NCBI GenBank assembly: GCA_000002445.1
Contig: AE017150.2
Span: 832,001 to 896,000 of the forward strand
Direction of reading: 5' to 3'
DNA: 64,000 nucleotides
Source of the DNA: Trypanosoma brucei
Lineage: Eukaryota
A program made the translations under genes and the position numbers. Numbering within the stretch: position 1 is the first letter of the stretch; each line of letters opens with the position of its first letter. Below the pieces are notes generated by a model, which was not told the DNA's origin, did no database searches, and worked only from the letters and a program-made list of their open reading frames with translations. Of this stretch, positions 8,414-40,187 are shown in pieces.

Positions 8414-8841
8414 TTACAGATAAGACTACGTGAAAAGGAAAAGAAAAAAAATAGAAATTTAAAAACTGCACTCACTCACAGAGAATATACATTACACGTC
8501 ACAAGCATTCAAATACAGCACAAAAATAAGGTTGACAACGAGCTTCCGGTGCACACACCAACCCGTAAACGAATAACAAAGCACATCAAAAACACAAAAC
8601 TACCAAGACAATCGATAAGGTAACTGTATGCCACGCCAACCAGTTGCAGCGCAATGCTCATACTGGCAAACGTGGCACACGCTGCGCCAAGGCTCACAGT
8701 ATCAACAGTGATGTAATCGACAGAGCGTTACCAAATACATCACCACGACAGGACATAGCACACTACGGAACCTGCAACATTACGATATAGCTGCAAAACA
8801 AAACAACAGGAAAAACAATTACTGTATATCCACAACACCGG

Positions 8842-9870
8842 TCACAGCTGCGCCCCATCACGCGTCCAGTACACCTCCCCACTCATTGCAGCCTCGTCCA
8901 TCTGCTTCCGCTTCTCACCTTCAGGGAGTCGGTAATTCATAAAAACAATACGCATCTCCTCTGGCGTCATGTCCTTCACCCAACCTCGTGCATTCAAGTA
9001 ACGTCGAGCAAGTTCCCGCTCCCTCAAATCACGATGATAAGGGCTCAGTGGGTGGCTCGCTCTCCACAGGGTATCCAGTAAACAGGGGTCACGCAAACCC
9101 TCCTCAATCTGTTCATCCGTCAGTGGTGACATATTGGGCCGGTGCAACCGCTCAATCAGTGGTGCCTCTTCAAGTTCACGCTGCCTCAACGTAGTATATT
9201 GTTCCATGTGTATACGCCTGTACCTTTCGCATTCCTCCGTGTACTGCTGCTCAGTCATATCTTTCACGGGGGAACTGTAAGGTGTATCTACGCCAATGAA
9301 ACAAACACCCATCCGCCTGGCTTGCCCAACAACGCGTCGTACACGGGTCTCCAGTAACGGGTACTCTGGACGTCCCCAACACAACGGTTTCATTTTCGCT
9401 ATTTCGTATGCCATCTCCAATGTCATCAGAGCACAGTAGTGCCCTCGCAGCGGCACAGGTCCCGTCTCCCGCCGCTTCTTCCGAAGTGCACGCAGAATGA
9501 ACCACGCAGTAGGTGGCGGTTCAATTGTAAAAAGATACGATTTGTCAAAGTACACTTGGATGCGAACAATCAGCTCGACATCTTCCTTGAAGTGTGGCTT
9601 CGTCCGGTCATTGAACACCTTCGCAAAATCCATCGCCTTCAGCCCAAGTTTCGAAAACTCTTGTCCCACGGGAGGACCCGTCGCCGCCTTCCCAGCCTTA
9701 ATAAAGAAACGCCAGTTGTGCAATACACGCTTCCCAGGAAATTCAGGTCGCCCAAATATATCCCTCGCCTTCTCAACCACCAAAGCTTCAGGCAGTCGGT
9801 TTGAACCAGGTTCTACACACACCGTCTTGGGCCGTGCCCTTAGTTGAAGGACGCCACACGCGCGGAGCAT
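8842..9870 (-). CDS. ribosomal protein L11-domain protein (likely mitochondrial large-subunit L11), copy 1
   Basis: 342-aa ORF. KAGKAATGPPVGQEFSKLGLKAMDFAKVFNDRTK resembles the L11 N-terminal domain consensus. An identical protein is encoded at 31965..32993. Confidence 0.65.
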   Translation of the reverse strand: MLRACGVLQLRARPKTVCVEPGSNRLPEALVVEKARDIFGRPEFPGKRVLHNWRFFIKAGKAATGPPVGQEFSKLGLKAMDFAKVFNDRTKPHFKEDVELIVRIQVYFDKSYLFTIEPPPTAWFILRALRKKRRETGPVPLRGHYCALMTLEMAYEIAKMKPLCWGRPEYPLLETRVRRVVGQARRMGVCFIGVDTPYSSPVKDMTEQQYTEECERYRRIHMEQYTTLRQRELEEAPLIERLHRPNMSPLTDEQIEEGLRDPCLLDTLWRASHPLSPYHRDLRERELARRYLNARGWVKDMTPEEMRIVFMNYRLPEGEKRKQMDEAAMSGEVYWTRDGAQL

Positions 9871-10412
9871 CAGTCAACTGTCACTAAATGGCTTACACAC
9901 AATTACTAGTTGTAAGTCCTTATATACAGTTGCGTACCAGAAGAGAAGAGGGAAGAGATAGTAACAGCAAGCATCCAAAGAAATGGGCGAGACGGTATAC
10001 AGGAAACATGTGTATGCATGTAGGCAGTAAGTAGAGCCCGTGCAGCAAGCAAAGGAAATGGTGAAACAGCACAATTACCGTATAGTGAAGAGAAGCTTCA
10101 GAAACACAAATACAACAAAATGTAAAGGGAAGGGAAGGAATAATACTGAGACCACACACACACGCACACAGAAAGAGAGAGAGAGAGAGACGTACAGACA
10201 AACAAGGAGAAAAAACTCCTCACGATGATTCACATTCCAACACGCGGCATACGACAGTTCCTACCGCAACCGCGTCGCGCCATATTAACGCACACACTCA
10301 CTCCATAAATGAATCAAATGTTCAGCACCCGCATCGATCACATCCTAAGCAATGCATTACTCAGTGCATGGCCAAGGGGAGAGTGCACATCCCAACAAGC
10401 TATAATAGCATC

Positions 10413-11393
10413 CTACTCAATTATACCACACAGAAACGACAAGAATAACAGGATACAACAAACAGGAAACGGCACCTTGTACAGAAGGAACACACTCAAT
10501 AGTGAGTACATCTCCCTCCCAGAATCAGGTGCAATAACATTCGTCATTCTGCTTGCCTCGCCGACAGCTGCTTCATACCCATTACTGCACCGACCGCTAG
10601 GAACAGTACCTGAAGCACAGTTAACAGGAGAATAAACCAATGGAGAAGCCGAAGCAGCAGTCTGATCCCCAGCACCCTTTGGGGAGTGACGGCTCCTCAA
10701 CGCTGTCGAAGGTGGAGACACCTCTCCTCCAGCATTCCTTACAGCTGAACCTAACTGTGGCTGTGCTGCCGGAGCTTTCTCCACAGCCGCAGTCTCACAA
10801 CCTTCCACAAGTCCTTCCACCTTTCCATGACTTCGCTTCATCACAAGGCTATCCGGAACACCCAACTCCCCATAAATACAGCGAAGTGCACACCGAACAG
10901 CATTCCGCTCCCTCGCCTGCACACGTCCACGTTGCTTCCAAAATGCAGCAGCGACGTCCGGACCGCTAGGGCCCTTGCTACTACAGTCACCTCCAAAGAA
11001 ACCACTCACAGACTCATACGGTGCCATAACTTCCCTCGGCACCACACATATATCCACGAACACCTCATCCCTTGTGCCAGCGTCTGGCAACTCCACAGCT
11101 CCTTCCTCCACGCCACCACGCCTCGCTGCGAGACGACGGAGCCTACGGATGTCAAGCATAAACTTCACCCTCACACATTCACCAGCAAATATCAGTCCAA
11201 CAGATGGTTGAACACCATAGCGATTGCGTACAGCACTGAGAACTTTGAACGCCACAACATTCTCACAAGGGTCCTCAGTACGTACAAGTAGACTACTTAA
11301 CTCGATAATATTCTCAATACTGGCATCCGTCAGAGGAGAAGGAAAGTACAGGCACTCCTGTGAAAAACAAACAATGCCCCCACCACCCTTCAT
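10413..11393 (-). CDS. conserved hypothetical protein (326 aa), copy 1
   Basis: Long ORF with coding-like composition and a polypyrimidine tract on the minus strand upstream. The copy at 33536..34516 differs by one residue (S to R). I recognise no domain. Confidence 0.5.
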   Translation of the reverse strand: MKGGGGIVCFSQECLYFPSPLTDASIENIIELSSLLVRTEDPCENVVAFKVLSAVRNRYGVQPSVGLIFAGECVRVKFMLDIRRLRRLAARRGGVEEGAVELPDAGTRDEVFVDICVVPREVMAPYESVSGFFGGDCSSKGPSGPDVAAAFWKQRGRVQARERNAVRCALRCIYGELGVPDSLVMKRSHGKVEGLVEGCETAAVEKAPAAQPQLGSAVRNAGGEVSPPSTALRSRHSPKGAGDQTAASASPLVYSPVNCASGTVPSGRCSNGYEAAVGEASRMTNVIAPDSGREMYSLLSVFLLYKVPFPVCCILLFLSFLCGIIE

Positions 11394-11893
11394 CGTGGAT
11401 GAAAGATACGAAACACTAATTACTCACCCGTAAGAAAGGACAGATACGAAATAGAGAAGAAAAACATAAACACATTCCCGGGAAGTAATGACAGTCACAG
11501 ATACAACAAGTATGAAAAAGAAGATATTACACCAATAATAAAATAGCAAAACACCAACCTCTAATACGGTCGAATAAATATAAACATATAACATGTCCGC
11601 TACGCAACAATTAAGCGAAACAAAAAACAATGAAAGGATAGAAAAAATACAGCGCAAACTTCGTTGGGTTGTCAAACAATTCAAAAACACAGATTATGTG
11701 GTTGCCCACAGCGCCAACAAATCATATAACCATGCCAAATAACGAGCTGAAAGCACTCCCCACTACGGTGTCATCCTCATGGTCATACCAATAAAGTAAA
11801 ATACAGAGCAAAAAAATGATCATACATACCATTCGAACGTATCATAGTACAATGAAAGAGTGACAAACATTTATGCAGCCACGCAACTCAACA

Positions 11894-12082
11894 TTACAAC
11901 ATATATATACAAACAGTATTAGGCATGGAGAAATACTCCTTCACATTAACAATCACGCGTCCATCATCACCATCAGCAGCAGTCACATGCAGCGAACACA
12001 CGGCAGTTAGCAATAATAAAATACCGCACAGGAGAGCAGCACGCGTAAAACCAAAATTCACCATACGGGTGTCCATGCTCAT
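11894..12082 (-). pseudogene. truncated 5' fragment of the lectin-like surface protein gene (first ~53 codons plus upstream region), copy 1
   Basis: Its 62-aa ORF shares MSMDTRMVNFGFTRAALLCGILLLLTAVCSLHVTAADGDDGRVIVNVKEYFSM exactly with the N-terminus of the 12902..13999 gene, then diverges and stops. It lies in a 395-bp element (11927-12322) repeated at 13845-14240. Confidence 0.6.
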
Positions 12083-12901
12083 TGTCAGTGTTGCTTCCTT
12101 ATGACTTTATCAAATACACACATATGCGGGAAAGAGGGAAGAGCGTGTGAGTAAAGGGGAAATGCAACAGTGACAATAGAAAAAGGAGTTACACAAGATA
12201 TCAAATAATCACACATACACTCGAGGATAATAAACAAGAAATATGAAAAGGATAACACAAATAATAATGGAAGAGAGCAGCCATATCACATATCCCAACA
12301 AATTGGTTAGTGAGACACAGGTACTCAAAACATTTATTATCATAATGGGCCAAGTATAACTCAGGGATTGAACACTATGGAACTCTCATTTAATACAACC
12401 TCATATAGATTGTTAAAATAATTAAGTGCTGCAAGTTACACGTATAGCAATACATCACACGTAACAGGGAGGACCTACAAGCCTCCCACATATACATGGA
12501 AGTAAAACATGAAATAACGCGAACTAAACATGACACCCACACACGAAATAAATAATCAACACCAACAACAACGAAACAATGGGACATCAAACAGTAAAGA
12601 TGGTTCAATGGGTCACACACTAAAAGAGCAATGATGTGGTCGGAGGGAAGTGATGCCACACATCGGAAGTCCCTCGCAGAGCCAACATGGTACAAGGAGA
12701 TCGTTAATATTAGGAACATAAAAGTAATAATTACATAAGAGAGTATTGAGCACTACTGAAAGTAATAATAGGAAGTGAAACAATACACGAAGCTAGAAAT
12801 TTTGACGGTCCGTAACGTAGGATGAAAGCGGCACAGTATTCATTACTCCACTTGATCCTAAACATCACTCAACCACCACCCATGTGATACACGATGTGAC
12901 G

Positions 12902-13999
12902 CTAATACGATTGACCGGTCATCATTTGGTTATAATATTGCAGGGCTAAGGGAGGAGCAGCAAAACCCTCTGGGGGAACAAAAGGTGTTGGCTCCAGGAC
13001 AAACAACGGCTCTCCAACAACTTCACGCAGCGTCATGGGAATGATCTCCTTTTTAACATTATAATCACAGAACCAACGTAAAAGGAAAAGCAGCAACACA
13101 ATGAGGGAAACAACAGAAATTAGAGCTATAAGAATAATGAGCAAATCAATCCTCTCTTCCAATGACACAGTTGTCACAGTAACTTCTTCATCCTTTGTCA
13201 CAGTTGGTTCCGGTACTTCGCCAGAGGCAGGTGCAGTTGTAGTTGTAGTGGTAGTTGTTGTGGTTGTCGTCGTGCTGATAGAATCATGGACCTCGCAAAC
13301 AACAACGTAGTCTTGAGACTTTGTTTCAAAGTTCTGACTTGTCCAACGAATAGTCCCAGAAGCCTCCCTGCCATCATACCAGGTAGTCACATCATCATCT
13401 TCATGGTACCATGAAAGGGTATACAACTGACCATGCTTGGGATATTCACTACCCCAAAAGGATGGGTAACCATTCATTGGAGCCGCAAAAGCGTATTTGA
13501 CATATGAACCACGCCAGAACGCCACCCCGTGACCATCAGGCAAAGCCTTTGCAAACAATCCCTTATTCCAACGATACACACAATGACGTGAAGATGCCGC
13601 GTCTCCAGGCTTACAACGCTTATCAGCCACAATGGCCCCGCCACTACTGTACACAGCATCTCCACCAAGGTAGCTGAAAGCATCCGAACCCGTTAACACA
13701 TCTTTCATTGCATCCTGCAAACTTTGGTGTGCCGCCTCCGTTTGATCGGCAGGAAGCACAGCGCCATTGTCGCGGCAATATGCTTCAGCATTGTTGTAAC
13801 TAACAAAGTACTTCCCATGACGACTAAATGCAAAATTGTCCATAGAGAAATACTCCTTCACATTAACAATCACGCGTCCATCATCACCATCAGCAGCAGT
13901 CACATGCAGCGAACACACGGCAGTTAGCAATAATAAAATACCGCACAGGAGAGCAGCACGCGTAAAACCAAAATTCACCATACGGGTGTCCATGCTCAT
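12902..13999 (-). CDS. type I membrane surface glycoprotein: signal peptide, C-type-lectin-like ectodomain, poly-Thr mucin-like stalk, single TM, short cytoplasmic tail (paralog A)
   Basis: 365 aa. The N-terminus has a hydrophobic signal peptide. The ectodomain has CTLD-like spacing (KYFVSYNNAEAYCRDNGAVLPADQTEAAHQSLQ ... WYDGREASGTIRWTSQNFE ... YVVVCEV). A run of 13 Thr precedes APASGEVPEPTVT, then the TM LIILIALISVVSLIVLLLFLL and tail RWFCDYNVKKE... The lectin assignment is tentative; the architecture is clear. Confidence 0.6.
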   Translation of the reverse strand: MSMDTRMVNFGFTRAALLCGILLLLTAVCSLHVTAADGDDGRVIVNVKEYFSMDNFAFSRHGKYFVSYNNAEAYCRDNGAVLPADQTEAAHQSLQDAMKDVLTGSDAFSYLGGDAVYSSGGAIVADKRCKPGDAASSRHCVYRWNKGLFAKALPDGHGVAFWRGSYVKYAFAAPMNGYPSFWGSEYPKHGQLYTLSWYHEDDDVTTWYDGREASGTIRWTSQNFETKSQDYVVVCEVHDSISTTTTTTTTTTTTTAPASGEVPEPTVTKDEEVTVTTVSLEERIDLLIILIALISVVSLIVLLLFLLRWFCDYNVKKEIIPMTLREVVGEPLFVLEPTPFVPPEGFAAPPLALQYYNQMMTGQSY

Positions 14000-15103
14000 T
14001 GTCAGTGTTGTTTCCTTATGACTTTATCAAATACACACATATGCGGGAAAGAGGGAAGAGCGTGTGAGTAAAGGGGAAATGCAACAGTGACAATAGAAAA
14101 AGGAGTTACACAAGATATCAAATAATCACACATACACTCGAGGATAATAAACAAGAAATATGAAAAGGATAACACAAATAATAATGGAAGAGAGCAGCCA
14201 TATCACATATCCCAACAAATTGGTTAGTGAGGCACAGGTACACGTCGTATTTGATACAATAGTGGAGAAACTAAAGCAGAAAGAATATACATTATTCAAC
14301 TCTTGTTTGGTACAACCCTACTGTGCGAGGTCACCCGGAGCATTCGAGAGTGATGAAAACCAAATCCTCGCCTATTCATTATCCACGTTAGTTGAGGGGC
14401 GGAAGTGCTGCGTACATCAACGCGCGGTAAGAAGCGAGTGAAAACCGACTTACATTTGTCGCGACCTTCTTCAGGTGACGTCCGTAGGTGTGCCTGATCA
14501 GGATACGGCCATCTAGTATGAGAAGTAACCGGCGACGCCGATCTATCCGAACAAATACTACAACAAACAGCATAGACACGGAAGCGGAGTGGGAAAGCAT
14601 CACCAGCTCAGTTGTACTCAGTGTGCCAATAGGGTGGTTTTTTTTCTGCTATAAAAAAAGAACTTGAAGCATAAAGAAACGATGGTCCGCCTCCAGCTGC
14701 GTACCGGCGCACAGCGGAACCCCCATTGAATTTAAAACATCGTGCAGGTGGAGGTGCGGCAAGTTTACTCCCTCCCTTCCCTTCATTGTCTTCTTGGGTA
14801 CCTCGCGCATGTCCCAACAAACCACACAATCTCCAACCCGAGGACAACCGATAACGGGCATACGCTTTGTCTCCCCGCAAAGTCTCCAAGCGCGCACGTA
14901 TTCACATCACTATCGCAGCCTGTCATATTGCATACAAGTCGCTGTGGCCTTGCGAAAAAAAGCTCCCAGCTAGCGTAAACTAAACTCTCTCCAAGCACCA
15001 GGAGACAGAGTTGCAAATGCACACCACCACTCAGTCCCAACCTCGCTTCTTCGATCTGTTCATCTGTCAACACCAGCTCTCCCAAGTCCGTTCATCCATT
15101 GTG

Positions 15104-31562: not shown

Positions 31563-31964
31563 ACTTAAACTGATAAAAAAACAGCCTTAACTACAAAAGG
31601 GATATGCCTAAAAAAAACCTAAATAAAAGATTCAAATACAGCACAAAAATAAGGTTGACAACGAGCTTCCGGTGCACACACCAACCCGTAAACGAATAAC
31701 AAAGCACATCAAAAACACAAAACTACCAAGACAATCGATAAGGTAACTGTATGCCACGCCAACCAGTTGCAGCGCAATGCTCATACTGGCAAACGTGGCA
31801 CACGCTGCGCCAAGGCTCACAGTATCAACAGTGATGTAATCGACAGAGCGTTACCAAATACATCACCACGACAGGACATAGCACACTACGGAACCTGCAA
31901 CATTACGATATAGCTGCAAAACAAAACAACAGGAAAAACAATTACTGTATATCCACAACACCGG

Positions 31965-32993
31965 TCACAGCTGCGCCCCATCACGCGTCCAGTACACCTC
32001 CCCACTCATTGCAGCCTCGTCCATCTGCTTCCGCTTCTCACCTTCAGGGAGTCGGTAATTCATAAAAACAATACGCATCTCCTCTGGCGTCATGTCCTTC
32101 ACCCAACCTCGTGCATTCAAGTAACGTCGAGCAAGTTCCCGCTCCCTCAAATCACGATGATAAGGGCTCAGTGGGTGGCTCGCTCTCCACAGGGTATCCA
32201 GTAAACAGGGGTCACGCAAACCCTCCTCAATCTGTTCATCCGTCAGTGGTGACATATTGGGCCGGTGCAACCGCTCAATCAGTGGTGCCTCTTCAAGTTC
32301 ACGCTGCCTCAACGTAGTATATTGTTCCATGTGTATACGCCTGTACCTTTCGCATTCCTCCGTGTACTGCTGCTCAGTCATATCTTTCACGGGGGAACTG
32401 TAAGGTGTATCTACGCCAATGAAACAAACACCCATCCGCCTGGCTTGCCCAACAACGCGTCGTACACGGGTCTCCAGTAACGGGTACTCTGGACGTCCCC
32501 AACACAACGGTTTCATTTTCGCTATTTCGTATGCCATCTCCAATGTCATCAGAGCACAGTAGTGCCCTCGCAGCGGCACAGGTCCCGTCTCCCGCCGCTT
32601 CTTCCGAAGTGCACGCAGAATGAACCACGCAGTAGGTGGCGGTTCAATTGTAAAAAGATACGATTTGTCAAAGTACACTTGGATGCGAACAATCAGCTCG
32701 ACATCTTCCTTGAAGTGTGGCTTCGTCCGGTCATTGAACACCTTCGCAAAATCCATCGCCTTCAGCCCAAGTTTCGAAAACTCTTGTCCCACGGGAGGAC
32801 CCGTCGCCGCCTTCCCAGCCTTAATAAAGAAACGCCAGTTGTGCAATACACGCTTCCCAGGAAATTCAGGTCGCCCAAATATATCCCTCGCCTTCTCAAC
32901 CACCAAAGCTTCAGGCAGTCGGTTTGAACCAGGTTCTACACACACCGTCTTGGGCCGTGCCCTTAGTTGAAGGACGCCACACGCGCGGAGCAT
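31965..32993 (-). CDS. ribosomal protein L11-domain protein (mitochondrial L11-like), copy 2
   Basis: 342-aa translation identical to 8842..9870. Confidence 0.65.
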   Translation of the reverse strand: MLRACGVLQLRARPKTVCVEPGSNRLPEALVVEKARDIFGRPEFPGKRVLHNWRFFIKAGKAATGPPVGQEFSKLGLKAMDFAKVFNDRTKPHFKEDVELIVRIQVYFDKSYLFTIEPPPTAWFILRALRKKRRETGPVPLRGHYCALMTLEMAYEIAKMKPLCWGRPEYPLLETRVRRVVGQARRMGVCFIGVDTPYSSPVKDMTEQQYTEECERYRRIHMEQYTTLRQRELEEAPLIERLHRPNMSPLTDEQIEEGLRDPCLLDTLWRASHPLSPYHRDLRERELARRYLNARGWVKDMTPEEMRIVFMNYRLPEGEKRKQMDEAAMSGEVYWTRDGAQL

Positions 32994-33535
32994 CAGTCAA
33001 CTGTCACTAAATGGCTTACACACAATTACTAGTTGTAAGTCCTTATATACAGTTGCGTACCAGAAGAGAAGAGGGAAGAGATAGTAACAGCAAGCATCCA
33101 AAGAAATGGGCGAGACGGTATACAGGAAACATGTGTATGCATGTAGGCAGTAAGTAGAGCCCGTGCAGCAAGCAAAGGAAATGGTGAAACAGCACAATTA
33201 CCGTATAGTGAAGAGAAGCTTCAGAAACACAAATACAACAAAATGTAAAGGGAAGGGAAGGAATAATACTGAGACCACACACACACGCACACAGAAAGAG
33301 AGAGAGAGAGAGACGTACAGACAAACAAGGAGAAAAAACTCCTCACGATGATTCACATTCCAACACGCGGCATACGACAGTTCCTACCGCAACCGCGTCG
33401 CGCCATATTAACGCACACACTCACTCCATAAATGAATCAAATGTTCAGCACCCGCATCGATCACATCCTAAGCAATGCATTACTCAGTGCATGGCCAAGG
33501 GGAGAGTGCACATCCCAACAAGCTATAATAGCATC

Positions 33536-34516
33536 CTACTCAATTATACCACACAGAAACGACAAGAATAACAGGATACAACAAACAGGAAACGGCACCT
33601 TGTACAGAAGGAACACACTCAATAGTGAGTACATCTCCCTCCCAGAATCAGGTGCAATAACATTCGTCATTCTGCTTGCCTCGCCGACAGCTGCTTCATA
33701 CCCATTACTGCACCGACCGCTAGGAACAGTACCTGAAGCACAGTTAACAGGAGAATAAACCAATGGAGAAGCCGAAGCAGCAGTCTGATCCCCAGCACCC
33801 TTTGGGGAGTGACGGCTCCTCAACGCTGTCGAAGGTGGAGACACCTCTCCTCCAGCATTCCTTACAGCTGAACCTAACTGTGGCTGTGCTGCCGGAGCTT
33901 TCTCCACAGCCGCAGTCTCACAACCTTCCACAAGTCCTTCCACCTTTCCATGACTTCGCTTCATCACAAGGCTATCCGGAACACCCAACTCCCCATAAAT
34001 ACAGCGAAGTGCACACCGAACAGCATTCCGCTCCCTCGCCTGCACACGTCCACGTTGCTTCCAAAATGCAGCAGCGACGTCCGGACCGCTAGGGCCCTTT
34101 CTACTACAGTCACCTCCAAAGAAACCACTCACAGACTCATACGGTGCCATAACTTCCCTCGGCACCACACATATATCCACGAACACCTCATCCCTTGTGC
34201 CAGCGTCTGGCAACTCCACAGCTCCTTCCTCCACGCCACCACGCCTCGCTGCGAGACGACGGAGCCTACGGATGTCAAGCATAAACTTCACCCTCACACA
34301 TTCACCAGCAAATATCAGTCCAACAGATGGTTGAACACCATAGCGATTGCGTACAGCACTGAGAACTTTGAACGCCACAACATTCTCACAAGGGTCCTCA
34401 GTACGTACAAGTAGACTACTTAACTCGATAATATTCTCAATACTGGCATCCGTCAGAGGAGAAGGAAAGTACAGGCACTCCTGTGAAAAACAAACAATGC
34501 CCCCACCACCCTTCAT
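33536..34516 (-). CDS. conserved hypothetical protein (326 aa), copy 2
   Basis: One amino-acid difference from 10413..11393 (SRKGPSG versus SSKGPSG). Confidence 0.5.
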   Translation of the reverse strand: MKGGGGIVCFSQECLYFPSPLTDASIENIIELSSLLVRTEDPCENVVAFKVLSAVRNRYGVQPSVGLIFAGECVRVKFMLDIRRLRRLAARRGGVEEGAVELPDAGTRDEVFVDICVVPREVMAPYESVSGFFGGDCSRKGPSGPDVAAAFWKQRGRVQARERNAVRCALRCIYGELGVPDSLVMKRSHGKVEGLVEGCETAAVEKAPAAQPQLGSAVRNAGGEVSPPSTALRSRHSPKGAGDQTAASASPLVYSPVNCASGTVPSGRCSNGYEAAVGEASRMTNVIAPDSGREMYSLLSVFLLYKVPFPVCCILLFLSFLCGIIE

Positions 34517-35016
34517 CGTGGATGAAAGATACGAAACACTAATTACTCACCCGTAAGAAAGGACAGATACGAAATAGAGAAGAAAAACATAAACACATTC
34601 CCGGGAAGTAATGACAGTCACAGATACAACAAGTATGAAAAAGAAGATATTACACCAATAATAAAATAGCAAAACACCAACCTCTAATACGGTCGAATAA
34701 ATATAAACATATAACATGTCCGCTACGCAACAATTAAGCGAAACAAAAAACAATGAAAGGATAGAAAAAATACAGCGCAAACTTCGTTGGGTTGTCAAAC
34801 AATTCAAAAACACAGATTATGTGGTTGCCCACAGCGCCAACAAATCATATAACCATGCCAAATAACGAGCTGAAAGCACTCCCCACTACGGTGTCATCCT
34901 CATGGTCATACCAATAAAGTAAAATACAGAGCAAAAAAATGATCATACATACCATTCGAACGTATCATAGTACAATGAAAGAGTGACAAACATTTATGCA
35001 GCCACGCAACTCAACA

Positions 35017-35205
35017 TTACAACATATATATACAAACAGTATTAGGCATGGAGAAATACTCCTTCACATTAACAATCACGCGTCCATCATCACCATCAGC
35101 AGCAGTCACATGCAGCGAACACACGGCAGTTAGCAAATATAAAAGACCGCACAGGAGAGCAGCACGCGTAAAACCAAAATTCACCATACGGGTGTCCATG
35201 CTCAT
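35017..35205 (-). pseudogene. truncated 5' fragment of the lectin-like surface protein gene, copy 2
   Basis: Shares the signal-peptide N-terminus with the 36049..37104 gene, then diverges to the same PNTVCIYML stop as copy 1. It has 2 substitutions relative to the copy-1 fragment. Confidence 0.6.
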
Positions 35206-36048
35206 TGTCAGTGTTGCTTCCTTATGAGTTTATCAAATACACACATATGCGGGAAAGAGGGAAGAGCGTGTGAGTAAAGGGGAAATGCAACAGTGACAAT
35301 AGAAAAAGGAGTTACACAAGATATCAAATAATCACACATACACTCGAGGATAATAAACAAGAAATATGAAAAGGATAACACAAATAATAATGGAAGAGAG
35401 CAGCCATATCACATATCCCAACAAATTGGTTAGTGAGACACAGGTACTCAAAACATTTATTATCATAATGGGCCAAGTATAACTCAGGGATTGAACACTA
35501 TGGAACTCTCGTTTAATGTAACCTCATATAGATTGTTAAAATTATCAAGTGCTGCAAGTTACACGTATAGCAATACATCACACGTAACAGGGAGGACCTA
35601 CAAGCCTCCCACATATACATGGAAGTAAAACATGAAATAACGCGAACTAAACATGACACCCACACACGAAATAAATAATCAACACTAACAACAACGAAAC
35701 AATGGGACATCAAACAGTAAAGATGGTTCAATGGGTCACACACTAAAAGAACAATGATGTGGTCGGAGGGAAGTGATGCCACACATCGGAAGTCCCTCGC
35801 AGAGCCAACATGGTACAAGGAGACCGTTAATATTAGGAACATAAAAGTAATAATTATATAAGAGAGTATTGAGCACTACTGAAAGTAATAGTAGGAAGTG
35901 AAACAATACACGAAGCTAGAAATTGTGACGGTCCGTAACGTAGGATGAAAGCGGTACAGTATTCATTACTCCACTTGATCCTAAACATCACTCAACCACC
36001 ACCCATGTGATACACGATGTGACGCTAATATTATTCACTGGTTCTCAT

Positions 36049-37104
36049 TTAGCCATAATATTGCAGGGCTAAGGGAGGAGCATCAAAACCCTCTGGGGGA
36101 GCAAAAGGTGTTGGCTCCAGGACAAACAACGGTTCTCCAACAACTTCACGCAGCGTCATGGGAATGATCTCCTTTTTAACATTATAATCACAGAACCAAC
36201 GTAAAAGGAAAAGCAGCAACACAATGAGGGAAACAACAGAAATTAGAGCTATGAGAATAATGTGCCAATTACTTCTCTCTTCCAATGACGCAGTTGTCAC
36301 AGTAACTTCTTCATCCTTTGTCACAGTTGGTTCCGGTACTTCGCCTGAGGCAGGTGCAGCTGTAGTTGTTGTCGTCGTGCTGATAGAATCGTGGACCTCG
36401 CAAACAACAACGTAGTCTTGAGACTTTGTTTCAAAGTTCTGACTTGTCCATCGGATAGTCCCAGAAGCCTCCCTGCCATCGTACCAGGTAGTCACATCTT
36501 CGTGTTCATGGTACCATGAAAGGGTATACAACTGACCACTCTTGGGATATTCACTACCCCAAAAGGATGGGTAACCATTCATTGGGGCCGCAAAAGCGTA
36601 TTTGACATATGAACCACGCCAGAACGCCACCCCGTGACCATCAGGCAAAGCCTTTGCAAACAATCCCTTATTCCAACGATACACACAATGACGTGAAGAT
36701 GCCGCGTCTCCAGGCTTACAACGCTTATCAGCTTCAAATACCCTTGTACTGCTGTACACAGCATCTCCACCAAGGTAGCTGACGGCCTCAAACTCAAAAA
36801 TTACACTCTTCATAGCATCCTGCAAACTTTGGTGTGCCGCCTCCGTTTGATCGGCAGGAAGCACAGCACCGTTGTCGACACAATATGCTTCAGCATTATC
36901 GTAACCAACAATGTACCGTTCGTGACGACTAAATGCAAAATTGTCCATAGAGAAATACTCCTTCACATTAACAATCACGCGTCCATCATCATCATCAGCA
37001 GCAGTCACATGCAGCGGACACACGGCAGTTAGCAATAATAAAATACCGCACAGGAGAGCAGCACGCGTAAAACCAAAATTCACCATACGGGTGTCCATGC
37101 TCAT
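36049..37104 (-). CDS. type I membrane surface glycoprotein with a lectin-like ectodomain, short poly-Thr stalk and TM (paralog B)
   Basis: 351 aa with the same architecture as 12902..13999. It differs in clustered ectodomain substitutions (SRHERYIVGYDNAEAYCVDNG, KSVIFEFEAV, SSTRVFEAD, HEHED). The Thr run is 5 rather than 13, and the C-terminus is shorter (QYYG stop). Confidence 0.6.
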   Translation of the reverse strand: MSMDTRMVNFGFTRAALLCGILLLLTAVCPLHVTAADDDDGRVIVNVKEYFSMDNFAFSRHERYIVGYDNAEAYCVDNGAVLPADQTEAAHQSLQDAMKSVIFEFEAVSYLGGDAVYSSTRVFEADKRCKPGDAASSRHCVYRWNKGLFAKALPDGHGVAFWRGSYVKYAFAAPMNGYPSFWGSEYPKSGQLYTLSWYHEHEDVTTWYDGREASGTIRWTSQNFETKSQDYVVVCEVHDSISTTTTTTAAPASGEVPEPTVTKDEEVTVTTASLEERSNWHIILIALISVVSLIVLLLFLLRWFCDYNVKKEIIPMTLREVVGEPLFVLEPTPFAPPEGFDAPPLALQYYG

Positions 37105-39087
37105 TGTCAGTGTTGTTTCCTTATGAGTCTATCAAATACACACATATGCGGGAAAGAGGGAAGAGCGTGTCAGTAAAGGGGAAATGCAACAGTGACAATA
37201 GAAAAAGGAGTTACACAAGATATCAAATAATCACACATACACTCGAGGATAATAAACAAGAAACATGAAAAAGGATAACACAAATAATAATGGAAGAGAG
37301 CAGCCATATCACATATCCCAACAAATTGGTTAGTGAGGCACAGGTACACGTCGTATTTGATACAATAGTGGAGAAACTAAAGCAGAAAGAATATACATTA
37401 TTCAACTCTTGTTTGGTACAACCCTACTGTGCGAGGTCACCCGGAGCATTCGAGAGTGATGAAAACCAAATCCTCGCCTATTCATTATCCACGTTAGTTG
37501 AGGAGCGGAACCAACACCGACCGTCACTTCGCAAAGACGAAAAAAAATATGCAGATACAGCATAACATATCAGCTACATGCATGGTTTATGTACTGGAGC
37601 ACAGCTGGACAGTCAGCGACATTTGTCACGTAATTGCGAAACATTGTCCGTTGTTTCGTGCTTGCTGAGAGACTCCTGTAAAGTACATACTCGTCAAAAT
37701 AACCTTAAGGAAGAAAGAGAAGAAAACTAGTGGCAAGCCTTTACGACAGTAGTGAAGTTTTTGCACAAATCCTTCATCACGTGCAAAACTGTTGTAGTCA
37801 TCATCTGTACACTAAATCATTGTGCGCGCCCCATTATTCATTGCTTACTATGTCGCTTTATTGCACTACGCTACGCTGTATAACCTCATCGTCTTGGAAG
37901 TAACGTGGGTCAGATGTGGACCGTTATGAAAAAGTCGTACAACCACCACACGTTGGAAGTGCCCGTGGCGAAGGCAGCGCCGTTGGAGAAGATCAACTTA
38001 TCTTTTGTCCACGTTACGTGCAAACGCAGTTACATCCTTCGGAAACCTTCTGAAGAGCATTAAACCTTCGAAAGACGTTACGCATTTTATCTCGGTCGTG
38101 CCCATACTTACGGCTATGACTCCTCAAAGGATAAATTGAGTAATTATATATGAGTAATCACTCTTCATTTGTCAAAAAAAAAAAGATGAAAGGAAAGGAA
38201 AGGGGGCAAGTTTTAAGATATTGATGTTGTGTAACGGACATGAGTTGCCCTCCATTCCATTTGAAAAAAAAAACAAGATATTTCCTTTATGTTACACACT
38301 CTCTCACATTGTTGTGATTCAGCATTATGAAGCTTACTGCTGCCACTGCCGCTGCCACGCGTTGATAACAGCAACAGCGAGTAGACGGTTTCAGAGGCCA
38401 CCCTCGCCATTTACCGTCCTTCTCGTTTACTTCTCTCCTTTACTAGTTTTGAGACTTCTTTTTTTTTTCTTTTTGCAGCTATCCCCGTGCCTTGTGTCCT
38501 TCGCGTTTGCACAACATAAAGGGGAACTTTGGAGGAGGGGGGGAGGCGATGCCTTTTTATAATGTCATGTGCTCTGTACGAAGCAGAGGAGGGGAGTTAA
38601 ACAGCGTTGTGCTGCTGGCACGAGACGGGGGTTAGACATTTCCTCCAATGCGCATGTCAAAATACACGGGAGGGCTCAAGCAATGTGCAGCACTCACTTT
38701 ACCAGGCAAACCACCTAAAAACAGTCTCTCCACCCCGAGTCAGCATCAAGAGCAGAGGATGGTTGGAGTTAGGATGAAAAAAAAAACTGAGAACGTGAAC
38801 AAGTTAGCGAATGTAAAGTTGAGGGAATCAAGGTACTTTCGTTTTTACACACACACACATACCTACCTACTTGAGCACAGAGCTAAAAAAGAAAATGGGT
38901 AAACTATTTCCCACGCTACTCCACACCATTCTGTCTGACGGAGAGTCCTATGAAGGCAAGAAGCGCCACTCGCTAACCCAACCCATTTCTCCTTCTTTAC
39001 GTGTATCGAAGTTTGTGGAATAAGAAGGAAACTCCTAAAACATACACAAACACACACACACGTATATATATATATACTTCACCACTC

Positions 39088-40125: not shown

Positions 40126-40175
<50 letters not shown>

Positions 40176-40180
40176 AGACA
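40126..40180. repeat. (CA)n / (GT)n dinucleotide microsatellite, about 22 perfect repeats plus a degenerate tail
   Basis: Read directly: cacacaca... from 40126 to 40170, then tacacagacac. It lies between the zinc-finger gene stop (40188) and the GDSL gene start (39825). Confidence 0.9.
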
Positions 40181-40187
40181 CCTCCAT

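What the first reader, a model, noticed from the sequence alone, without database searches (positions are those of the whole stretch)
12902..13999. Paralogous lectin-like type I surface glycoproteins with a variable poly-Thr stalk and clustered ectodomain substitutions
Both paralogs (12902-13999 and 36049-37104) encode signal peptide, a ~200-aa CTLD-like ectodomain, a Thr-rich stalk, a TM and a short tail. Between copies, substitutions cluster in ectodomain patches (SRHGKYFVSYNNAEAYCRDNG versus SRHERYIVGYDNAEAYCVDNG; KDVLTGSDAF versus KSVIFEFEAV; SSGGAIVAD versus SSTRVFEAD; HEDDD versus HEHED). The TM and tail are almost unchanged. The Thr run differs (13 versus 5, a ~21-nt indel in a degenerate ACN/GTN coding repeat) and the C-terminal tail length differs. 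Conserved membrane anchor with patchy ectodomain change is the signature of surface proteins under host or ligand-driven diversification. A C-type-lectin-like fold would be unusual for a trypanosome surface protein and needs checking.
Basis: partly seen in the sequence, partly recalled or inferred. Interest (0 to 1): 0.75.

Follow-up and report, generated by a model that had tools for sequence, protein, structure and literature searches.

The report
Two known trypanosome IGP40 lectin-like genes
These are two copies of the already described Trypanosoma brucei IGP40 gene family (membrane proteins with a C-type-lectin-like domain and a poly-threonine stalk), and their patchy differences look like swapped DNA tracts between gene copies rather than host-driven selection.

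Summary
Both ORFs exist exactly as stated (365 and 351 aa, 90% identical). They match Pfam PF16825, "IGP family C-type lectin domain" (E about 1e-84). Copy B is identical to T. brucei TREU927 XP_951669.1. The published IGP40 primers match both genes exactly. Allison et al. 2014 list Tb927.2.4760 and Tb927.2.4920 among the ten IGP40 genes.

The clustering of differences is real: 41 of 67 nucleotide differences fall in codons 58-125 (p = 7e-14). Synonymous changes cluster in the same places (pS 0.71 in the patches, 0.046 elsewhere). dN/dS is about 0.3-0.4.

The genes lie in a 5.9-kb segmental duplication whose other 3.4 kb differs at 3 bases. This is a gene-conversion mosaic, as Jackson et al. 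2010 reported for this family, not a demonstrated case of diversifying selection.

"Surface" is unsupported. Tagged IGP40 is ER-resident in bloodstream forms. Its location in tsetse salivary-gland epimastigotes, where transcripts peak, is untested.

Already known; low interest.

The parts
12902..13999 (-). IGP40 copy A, complete CDS (365 aa, 40.4 kDa); probably Tb927.2.4760
   Evidence: ORF. PF16825 E 5.5e-84. Molecular weight. 99% identical to T. b. gambiense CBH09535. The gene ID is inferred from accession spacing and from the family lists in PMC3998935 and PMC4497807 Table S2.
36049..37104 (-). IGP40 copy B, complete CDS (351 aa, 39.2 kDa); identical to XP_951669.1 of T. brucei TREU927; probably Tb927.2.4920
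   Evidence: ORF. PF16825 E 1.3e-85. Exact-sequence look-up.
13292..13810 (-). IGP-family C-type-lectin-like domain of copy A (residues 64-236). The equivalent in copy B is 36397-36915.
13625..13828 (-). Divergence hot zone, codons 58-125 (strand beta1, helix alpha1, alpha2-beta2 loop, start of the long loop). It holds 41 of the 67 A/B nucleotide differences.
   Evidence: pS is 0.71 in the tight patches and 0.046 in the rest of the CDS.
13235..13273 (-). Poly-Thr run of copy A (13 mixed ACN codons). Copy B has 6 Thr at 36361-36378. The indel is 18 nt.
   Evidence: A 6-18 Thr range for this family is published in PMC8483307.
13079..13144 (-). Transmembrane segment of copy A (about residues 286-307), followed by a 58-aa cytoplasmic tail (12905-13078)
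   Evidence: Kyte-Doolittle scan. The tail is conserved across paralogs.
11918..12324 (-). Relic of a second IGP40 gene downstream of copy A: about 242 nt of upstream region plus the first ~55 codons, then unrelated sequence
   Evidence: blastn self-hit, 99.3% identical to 13841-14241. tblastn. Translation.
35041..35447 (-). The same relic downstream of copy B
8503..14404 (.). Copy 1 of a 5.9-kb segmental duplication: IGP40, the relic, an MSP-domain gene and a mitochondrial-type L11 gene
   Evidence: blastn 98.1% over 5905 bp. 3 substitutions in 3415 nt outside the IGP part. Pfam hits for the neighbouring genes.
31627..37510 (.). Copy 2 of the 5.9-kb segmental duplication

Best explanation
The two ORFs are the two dispersed members of the T. 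brucei IGP40 ('invariant glycoprotein, 40 kDa') subfamily on chromosome 2. The gene IDs Tb927.2.4760 and Tb927.2.4920 are inferred.

- a signal peptide;
- a roughly 200-aa C-type-lectin-like domain, with extra N-terminal strands and an enlarged long-loop region;
- a poly-Thr, mucin-like stalk;
- one TM helix;
- a conserved tail of about 50-58 aa.

The lectin-like domain keeps the canonical alpha1-beta5 cysteine pair. It lacks the EPN/QPD and WND Ca2+/sugar motifs, so it is lectin-like by fold and not a demonstrated lectin.

The patchy A/B differences are not point substitutions accumulated under positive selection. They are short tracts of a different ancestry, set in an otherwise almost identical 5.9-kb duplicated segment. 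That pattern is a mosaic made by non-allelic gene conversion among the ten or more IGP40 copies, with purifying selection overall. The poly-Thr length change is an in-frame 18-nt indel within the run of mixed ACN codons.

Function rests on the literature and on inference. The lumenal/ecto domain keeps IGP40 in the ER of bloodstream forms. Oligomerisation was shown for IGP48 only. An ERGIC-53-like role in handling secretory cargo has been proposed. Transcripts peak in stumpy forms and in salivary-gland epimastigotes, so the protein probably acts during remodelling of the cell surface at life-cycle transitions.
For: Identity:
- PF16825 E 1e-84.
- B is identical to XP_951669.1.
- The published IGP40 qRT-PCR primers match both genes exactly.
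- The IGP40 cloning primers ATGAGCATGGACACCCGT and ...GAAGAGAGAAGTAATTGGCAC match the CDS.
- Tb927.2.4760 and Tb927.2.4920 are in the IGP40 block of Table S2 of PMC4497807. They are also in the family lists of PMC3998935 and PMC8483307.

Fold:
- AF2 model with pLDDT 94.2 and pTM 0.91.
- Foldseek top 50 are all CTLDs.
- The family profile matches the SP-A CRD at E 0.001.

Mosaic:
- 3 substitutions in 3415 nt of the shared flank, against 74 in the 1098-nt CDS.
- Synonymous differences cluster with the non-synonymous ones (Fisher p = 1e-7).
- pS is 0.71 in the patches and 0.046 elsewhere.
- dN/dS is 0.32-0.44.
- Character states are incongruent among the eight sampled proteins. For example, T. 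equiperdum P0001 is A-like up to residue 277, B-like at 278, 284-287 and 347, and A-like again in the tail.
- Published recombination tests on this family give PHI p < 0.001 and 10 LRT breakpoints (PMC2854126).
- Published Ds 0.156 and Dn 0.078 (PMC1855330) agree with the values obtained here.

Function:
- ER localisation, retention through the ectodomain, a half-life of about 30 min and an RNAi growth defect are reported in PMC4497807.
- Stage-specific expression is reported.
Against: - No donor was found for the two B-specific tracts (codons 100-108 and 120-124). None is in the window or among the proteins sampled, so conversion is inferred from the pattern rather than traced.
- The patches coincide with segments that vary across the whole IGP family. 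Selection may therefore help decide which tracts persist.
- A pairwise NG86 estimate on saturated multi-hit codons is crude.
- ER localisation comes from ectopic HA-tagged Tb927.2.5330 in bloodstream forms only, not from these two copies or from the stage of peak expression.
- The AF2 model is a prediction.
- The absence of a canonical sugar site rests on missing motifs, not on a structural superposition. hhalign aligned only helices alpha1-alpha2.
Confidence: 0.85

Rival explanations
1. One reading: these are cell-surface glycoproteins, and their ectodomain patches are diversifying under host- or ligand-driven positive selection.
For: - The patches fall in loops that are hypervariable across the whole IGP family.
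- Copy number is lineage-specific: 8-10 copies in T. b. brucei and 24 in T. b. gambiense.
- Transcripts peak together with BARP and other surface-protein genes in salivary-gland epimastigotes. Naguleswaran et al. suggest adhesion roles and O-glycosylation of the poly-Thr stretch.
- Copy B carries radical, unique changes relative to its T. b. gambiense counterpart.
Against: - dN/dS is 0.32-0.44 overall and 0.33-0.38 inside the patches.
- Synonymous sites in the patches are near saturation (pS 0.71), while the surrounding 5.9 kb is almost identical. Selection on amino acids cannot produce that.
- Tagged IGP40 is in the ER in bloodstream forms, and its ectodomain is the retention signal.
- Neither protein has an N-glycosylation sequon.
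Confidence: 0.12
2. Copy B is decaying under relaxed constraint. It would be an incipient pseudogene that is accumulating radical changes and has a truncated tail.
For: - The B-only substitutions TGS->FEF and GG->TR, and the premature stop that removes 7-8 tail residues.
- The ratio in the TM and tail region is about 1.
Against: - The ORF is intact and dN/dS is below 1.
- The truncated tail is shared with T. b. gambiense P0015, so it is old and has been retained.
- The changes are confined to short tracts that also carry synonymous changes. They are not scattered.
- Transcripts assigned to both gene IDs are regulated like the rest of the family.
Confidence: 0.08
3. The differences are an assembly artefact: a chimeric collapse of reads from the larger tandem array into the two dispersed loci.
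For: - The family is repetitive.
- The exact protein of copy A is absent from the 15-billion-protein collection.
Against: - B equals the GenBank reference protein.
- A is 99% identical to a T. b. gambiense protein from an independent assembly. That protein has a neighbouring 'fragment' gene that matches the relic.
- The patch 1 states are shared with T. b. gambiense and T. equiperdum orthologs.
Confidence: 0.02

Closest known systems
T. brucei IGP40 subfamily (Tb927.2.5330 and paralogs; Allison et al. 2014, PMC4497807; Pfam PF16825/DUF5075)
   Same: - The same domain (E 1e-84).
- The same architecture.
- The same 40-kDa core.
- Published IGP40 primers match exactly.
- 83-87% identity to array copies.
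- The gene IDs are listed in the paper's Table S2.
   Different: - These are the two dispersed copies, about 23 kb apart inside a 5.9-kb segmental duplication. They are not in the main tandem array.
- Copy A has the NQMMTGQSY tail type and the IDLL juxtamembrane variant.
- Copy B has a nonsense-shortened tail and two private tracts.
- Neither has an N-glycosylation sequon.
'Polythreonine transmembrane protein family' of salivary-gland epimastigotes (Naguleswaran et al. 2021, PMC8483307; Telleria et al. 2014, PMC3998935)
   Same: - The same genes under another name. Both gene IDs are listed.
- A stretch of 6-18 Thr is described, and the window copies have 13 and 6.
   Different: Those papers did not connect the family with the IGP name or with the ER localisation data. 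They propose mucin-like surface or adhesion roles.
Canonical C-type lectin-like domains (tetranectin 1HTN, collectins CL-K1, SP-A, SP-D and MBP, CD93)
   Same: - The alpha1-beta5 cysteine pair.
- The alpha1/alpha2 sequence signature and a 'YLGG' strand at the WIGL position.
   Different: - About 85 extra residues.
- No EPN/QPD or WND motif. WYD stands where one relative (P0024) has WND.
- No cysteines in strands beta3 and beta4. There is instead a C129/C140 pair in the long loop.
- Sequence identity is 10-20%.
ERGIC-53/LMAN1-type cargo receptors (functional analogy proposed by Allison et al.)
   Same: [quoted passage not shown]
- Residence in the ER or the ER-Golgi system.
- Oligomerisation, shown for IGP48.
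- No bulk secretion defect.
   Different: - There is no sequence relationship.
- To my knowledge ERGIC-53 has an L-type (legume-like) lectin domain, not a CTLD.
- The window proteins have no C-terminal KKFF-type motif. Their tails end ...GQSY and ...QYYG.
- No cargo is known.
Mosaic tandem arrays of T. brucei such as ISG65 (Jackson 2007, Jackson et al. 2010)
   Same: - The same mode of evolution: concerted evolution plus short recombinant tracts.
- This family is array 12 in both papers, with PHI p < 0.001.
   Different: Here the mosaic is seen between two dispersed copies, each embedded in a nearly identical 5.9-kb duplication together with two housekeeping genes.

Membership tests
IGP family (Pfam PF16825) | Significant match to the PF16825 domain model | tested here: met
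   E 5.5e-84 and 1.3e-85, covering model positions 1-173 of 173. The cut-off is 22.6 bits and the scores are 280 and 286 bits.
IGP family (Pfam PF16825) | Type I topology: N-terminal signal peptide, one TM, short cytoplasmic tail | tested here: met
   Two hydrophobic segments only, at about 7-37 and 278-315, with a basic stretch after the TM. SignalP and TMHMM were not available.
IGP family (Pfam PF16825) | Restricted to trypanosomatids | tested here: inconclusive
   Every named homolog is from Trypanosoma. The 1.84-billion-protein library gave only about 50 hits to the domain, and that library carries no names.
IGP family (Pfam PF16825) | At least one N-glycosylation sequon (part of the reason for the family name) | tested here: not met
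   There are no N-X-S/T sequons in either protein. This is a naming feature, not a homology criterion. IGP40-HA also ran at its core polypeptide mass.
IGP family (Pfam PF16825) | ER localisation through the lumenal domain | not testable with these tools
   Shown for HA-tagged Tb927.2.5330 in bloodstream forms (PMC4497807). Not shown for these two copies.
IGP40 subfamily | Core polypeptide of about 40 kDa and at least ~85% identity within the subfamily | tested here: met
   40.4 and 39.2 kDa. 83-99% identity to the other IGP40-type proteins.
IGP40 subfamily | Match to the published pan-IGP40 primers and listing of the gene IDs | tested here: met
   IGP40-RTF and IGP40-RTR match both genes exactly. 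Tb927.2.4760 and Tb927.2.4920 are in the Table S2 block with Tb927.2.5330. The mapping of the window ORFs to those two IDs is an inference.
C-type lectin-like domain (fold) | CTLD double-loop fold | tested here: met
   [not shown]
C-type lectin-like domain (fold) | Conserved C1-C4 cysteines (helix alpha1 and strand beta5) | tested here: met
   C75 lies in helix 68-77 and C235 in strand 233-238. Both are nearly invariant across 47 family members. The disulfide itself is inferred.
Ca2+-dependent C-type lectin (carbohydrate-recognition domain) | EPN or QPD motif plus WND motif that form Ca2+ site 2 | tested here: not met
   EPN, QPD and WND are absent. WYD is at 207-209 and EYPK at 185-188. Positional equivalence was not confirmed by superposition.
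Ca2+-dependent C-type lectin (carbohydrate-recognition domain) | C2-C3 disulfide linking beta3 and the loop after beta4 | tested here: not met
   There is no Cys in residues 193-215. The other two ectodomain cysteines are C129 and C140.
Mucin-like O-glycosylated stalk | Thr-rich run that carries O-glycans | not testable with these tools
   The run is present (13 and 6 Thr). O-glycosylation is only predicted in PMC8483307.
Surface protein under diversifying selection | dN/dS > 1 in exposed patches without a parallel excess of synonymous change | tested here: not met
   pN/pS is 0.38 in the tight patches, with pS 0.71. Omega is 0.32 for the ectodomain.

The most novel reading that the evidence does not exclude
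In their native stage, tsetse salivary-gland epimastigotes, IGP40 proteins may leave the ER and act as mucin-stalked, lectin-like adhesins on the parasite surface. Short-tract gene conversion among the ten or more copies would then serve as a diversity generator for particular loops of the lectin-like domain, such as the private tracts of copy B at codons 100-108 and 120-124. This would be a small, non-VSG analogue of segmental gene conversion.
Probability: 0.1. Interest if true: 0.55.

Novelty: already known. Interest (0 to 1): 0.15.

Why it matters
It matters little beyond bookkeeping. The family, its lectin-like domain, its variable poly-Thr stretch, its stage-regulated expression and its recombinant mode of evolution are all published.

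Three things are added here:
- A high-confidence fold assignment. It shows a true CTLD core without the canonical sugar/Ca2+ motifs.
- A clean two-copy illustration that patchy divergence in trypanosome multigene families reflects mosaic ancestry. Synonymous sites are saturated inside the patches and the flanks are nearly identical. This is a caution against reading clustered amino-acid changes as positive selection.
- The observation that two literatures describe the same genes under different names and reach conflicting views on location: 'IGP40, ER-resident' against 'polythreonine membrane proteins of salivary-gland forms'. Tagging the protein in epimastigotes would settle this.

Tried and rejected
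- Full-length AF2 with a 14-sequence alignment gave pLDDT 49 and was unusable. It was replaced by an ectodomain model with a 47-sequence alignment.
- The second and third homologous-protein searches, run with alignments, added almost nothing. The word-index candidate cap filled with low-complexity Thr/TM matches.
- The look-up of encoding contigs found no contig for copy B. No DNA of the other IGP40 paralogs could therefore be obtained, and no GARD- or GENECONV-type donor search was possible.
- hhalign of the family profile against a canonical EPN/WND CTLD taken from P0057 aligned only helices alpha1-alpha2. The motif equivalence could not be settled by sequence.
- The afdb50 fold library was unavailable.
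- A search for a donor of B's tract 2 in the window, with up to 3 mismatches, found only the tract itself. A simple compensated-frameshift origin for that tract was considered by eye and rejected.
- The Rfam and tandem-repeat scans of the window found nothing relevant.
- Model coordinates are not exposed, so the variable residues could not be mapped in 3D.

Full report
**Observation.** They are 90% identical with one internal gap. All the quoted peptide differences are present.

Three details need correcting:
- The Thr runs are 13 and 6, and the indel is 18 nt.
- B's short tail is caused by a CAA->TAA nonsense change. After it the DNA still reads MRTSE-stop, which is the C-terminus of other paralogs.
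- The membrane anchor is not 'almost unchanged'. A four-residue IDLL/SNWH swap sits at the TM boundary, and three more substitutions lie in the tail. This gives dN 0.037, against 0.015 for ectodomain residues 126-240.

The clustering is statistically real. 41 of 67 nucleotide differences lie in codons 58-125, where 13 are expected (binomial p = 7e-14). The spacing is more uneven than in any of 20,000 permutations.

**What the genes are.** Both proteins match Pfam PF16825, 'IGP family C-type lectin domain', over the full model at E about 1e-84. Copy B is identical to XP_951669.1 of T. brucei brucei TREU927, on the 1.19-Mb chromosome 2 record. Copy A is 99% identical to T. b. gambiense CBH09535.

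The family was described by Allison et al. 2014 (PMC4497807). It has twenty 'invariant glycoprotein' genes in three subfamilies: IGP34, IGP40 and IGP48. All are type I membrane proteins with a putative C-type lectin domain.

The window proteins weigh 40.4 and 39.2 kDa. The published pan-IGP40 qRT-PCR primers match both genes exactly. The IGP40 cloning primers match the start codon region and B's EERSNWH junction. Table S2 of that paper lists Tb927.2.4920 and Tb927.2.4760 in the block of ten genes that includes the IGP40 representative Tb927.2.5330.

Two tsetse-stage transcriptome papers list the same ten gene IDs. In them the family appears as a signal-peptide/TM family (PMC3998935) and as a 'novel family' with 6-18 threonines predicted to be O-glycosylated (PMC8483307). 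From accession spacing I infer that A is Tb927.2.4760 and B is Tb927.2.4920.

**Fold.** A full-length AF2 run with 14 sequences failed (pLDDT 49). The ectodomain (residues 37-242) with a 47-sequence alignment gave pLDDT 94.2 and pTM 0.91.
- The top 50 Foldseek hits are all CTLDs.
- By sequence, the family profile reaches the SP-A CRD at E 0.001 over beta1-alpha1-alpha2-beta2.

It is also already the published view and the name of the Pfam family.

About 117 of the 206 residues form the CTLD core. The rest are N-terminal strands and an enlarged long-loop region. C75 (alpha1) and C235 (beta5) correspond to the canonical C1-C4 pair. The usual beta3/beta4 cysteines are missing, and C129/C140 lie in the long loop. 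The tripeptides EPN, QPD and WND are absent. WYD stands where one relative has WND. I therefore regard the domain as lectin-like in fold but without the canonical Ca2+/sugar site. This rests on motif absence only, because a profile alignment to a canonical CTLD covered only alpha1-alpha2.

**Why the differences are patchy.** The two genes lie inside a 5.9-kb segmental duplication (8503-14404 and 31627-37510). The duplication also carries a mitochondrial-type L11 gene and an MSP-domain gene.

Divergence between the two copies varies sharply along the segment:

| Region | Length | Substitutions |
|---|---|---|
| Segment outside the IGP part | 3415 nt | 3 (0.09%) |
| IGP flanks | | 1-2% |
| IGP CDS | 1098 nt | 74, plus the 18-nt indel |

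Within the CDS the differences form tight blocks separated by identical runs of up to 146 nt.

The synonymous changes cluster in the same blocks:

| Measure | Tight patches (codons 61-79, 97-108, 118-124) | Rest of the CDS |
|---|---|---|
| pS | 0.71 | 0.046 |
| pN | 0.27 | 0.022 |

(Fisher p = 1e-7 for the synonymous heterogeneity.)

NG86 dN/dS is 0.44 for the gene, 0.32 for the ectodomain and 0.33 for codons 58-125. Positive selection on amino acids cannot saturate synonymous sites in 20-30-nt tracts while the surrounding kilobases stay identical. The pattern is that of tracts with a different ancestry. Either gene conversion from diverged paralogs introduced the tracts, or concerted evolution homogenised everything except those tracts.

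Protein-level incongruence supports this. The T. equiperdum protein P0001 is A-like up to residue 277, B-like at 278, 284-287 and 347, and A-like again in its tail.

The literature agrees. This family is 'array 12' of Jackson 2007, with Ds 0.156 and Dn 0.078. In Jackson et al. 2010 it has 8 copies in T. b. brucei and 24 in T. b. gambiense, PHI p < 0.001 and 10 LRT breakpoints.

One point stays open. B's tracts at codons 100-108 (SVIFEFEAV) and 120-124 (TRVFE) are unique among the sequences I could sample, and they differ from its positional T. b. gambiense counterpart. No donor was found in the window or in the other subfamilies. An unsampled array copy is the obvious candidate, but I could not obtain that DNA.

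**Relics.** About 580 nt downstream of each gene there is a 401-bp copy of the IGP40 upstream region plus the first ~55 codons. It stays open for 62 codons and carries the 'SMPN' variant seen in array paralogs. T. b. gambiense annotates a 41-aa 'fragment' next to A's ortholog. Each dispersed locus therefore looks like the remnant of a two-gene mini-array.

**Function and location.** The claim of a surface location is not supported. HA-tagged IGP40 (Tb927.2.5330) co-localises with BiP in bloodstream forms, has a half-life of about 30 min, and migrates at its core polypeptide mass. Replacing its lumenal domain releases it from the ER. RNAi against the subfamily slows growth. The RNAi forward primer matches the CDS of both window genes on inspection.

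Neither window protein has an N-glycosylation sequon. O-glycosylation of the Thr run is only predicted.

Transcripts rise in stumpy forms. They peak in BARP-positive salivary-gland epimastigotes. The protein's location in that stage has never been tested, so a surface role there is not excluded.

My best reading is a lectin-like, stalked type I protein of the early secretory pathway that acts during life-cycle remodelling. Its paralogs exchange short tracts by gene conversion under overall purifying selection.

**Verdict.** The 'surface protein under diversifying selection' reading is not supported. Everything essential is already published, so the finding is already known and of low interest.

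The residual novelty is modest. It consists of the motif-less CTLD core, the clear mosaic signature between the two dispersed copies, the private tracts of copy B, and the unresolved conflict between ER and surface location across two literatures that use different names for the same genes.

Noticed in passing
window 8503-14404 and 31627-37510: A 5.9-kb segmental duplication carries IGP40 together with two housekeeping-type genes. These are a mitochondrial-type ribosomal L11 gene (8842..9870- and 31965..32993-) and an MSP-domain gene (10413..11393- and 33536..34516-). Outside the IGP part the two copies differ at 3 of 3415 nt.
   Followed up: partly
window 11918-12324 and 35041-35447 (minus strand): A 401-bp relic of a second IGP40 gene lies downstream of each full copy. 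It consists of the upstream region plus the first ~55 codons and stays open for 62 codons. It carries the 'SMPN' variant of the array paralogs. T. b. gambiense annotates a 41-aa 'fragment' at the matching place.
   Followed up: partly
window 36028-36051 (minus strand): Copy B's stop codon is a CAA->TAA change. The next codons still read MRTSE-stop, the C-terminus of Tb927.2.5330-type paralogs, and they match the published IGP40 reverse cloning primer except for that one base. The T. b. gambiense counterpart is truncated at the same place.
   Followed up: yes
window 12902-13999 and 36049-37104: Neither 'invariant glycoprotein' has an N-X-S/T sequon. Any glycosylation would have to be O-linked on the Thr run.
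   Followed up: yes
window 12905-13078 (cytoplasmic tail of copy A): The 58-aa cytoplasmic tail is almost invariant among T. brucei-group paralogs. A core motif (KE..PM.LRE....P..V....PF.PP) recurs in the consensus of the T. brucei, T. congolense and T. vivax relatives, although Allison et al. found no sorting role for it. No KKxx or FF motif is present.
   Followed up: no
window 12902-13999: The exact protein of copy A is absent from the 15-billion-protein collection, whereas copy B is present as XP_951669.1. The GenBank chromosome 2 annotation may lack this gene or give a different version of it.
   Followed up: no
whole window: Every ORF with a Pfam hit lies on the minus strand, consistent with one polycistronic unit in a core housekeeping region. 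The hits include an RRM/zinc-knuckle protein, an ALG9-like mannosyltransferase, a WD40 protein, NIF and DSP phosphatases, a GDSL lipase, ATG14-like, EMG1, ACOX-like and SPT5. No Rfam family reached its threshold.
   Followed up: partly
window 40127-40181: A (CA)27 dinucleotide microsatellite lies just downstream of the 1424-aa ORF.
   Followed up: no
literature (PMC4497807, PMC8483307): The same ten genes are described as ER-resident IGP40 in 2014 and as a 'novel' polythreonine membrane-protein family of salivary-gland forms in 2021. In the passages of the 2021 paper that I read there was no reference to the IGP name or the ER data.
   Followed up: partly
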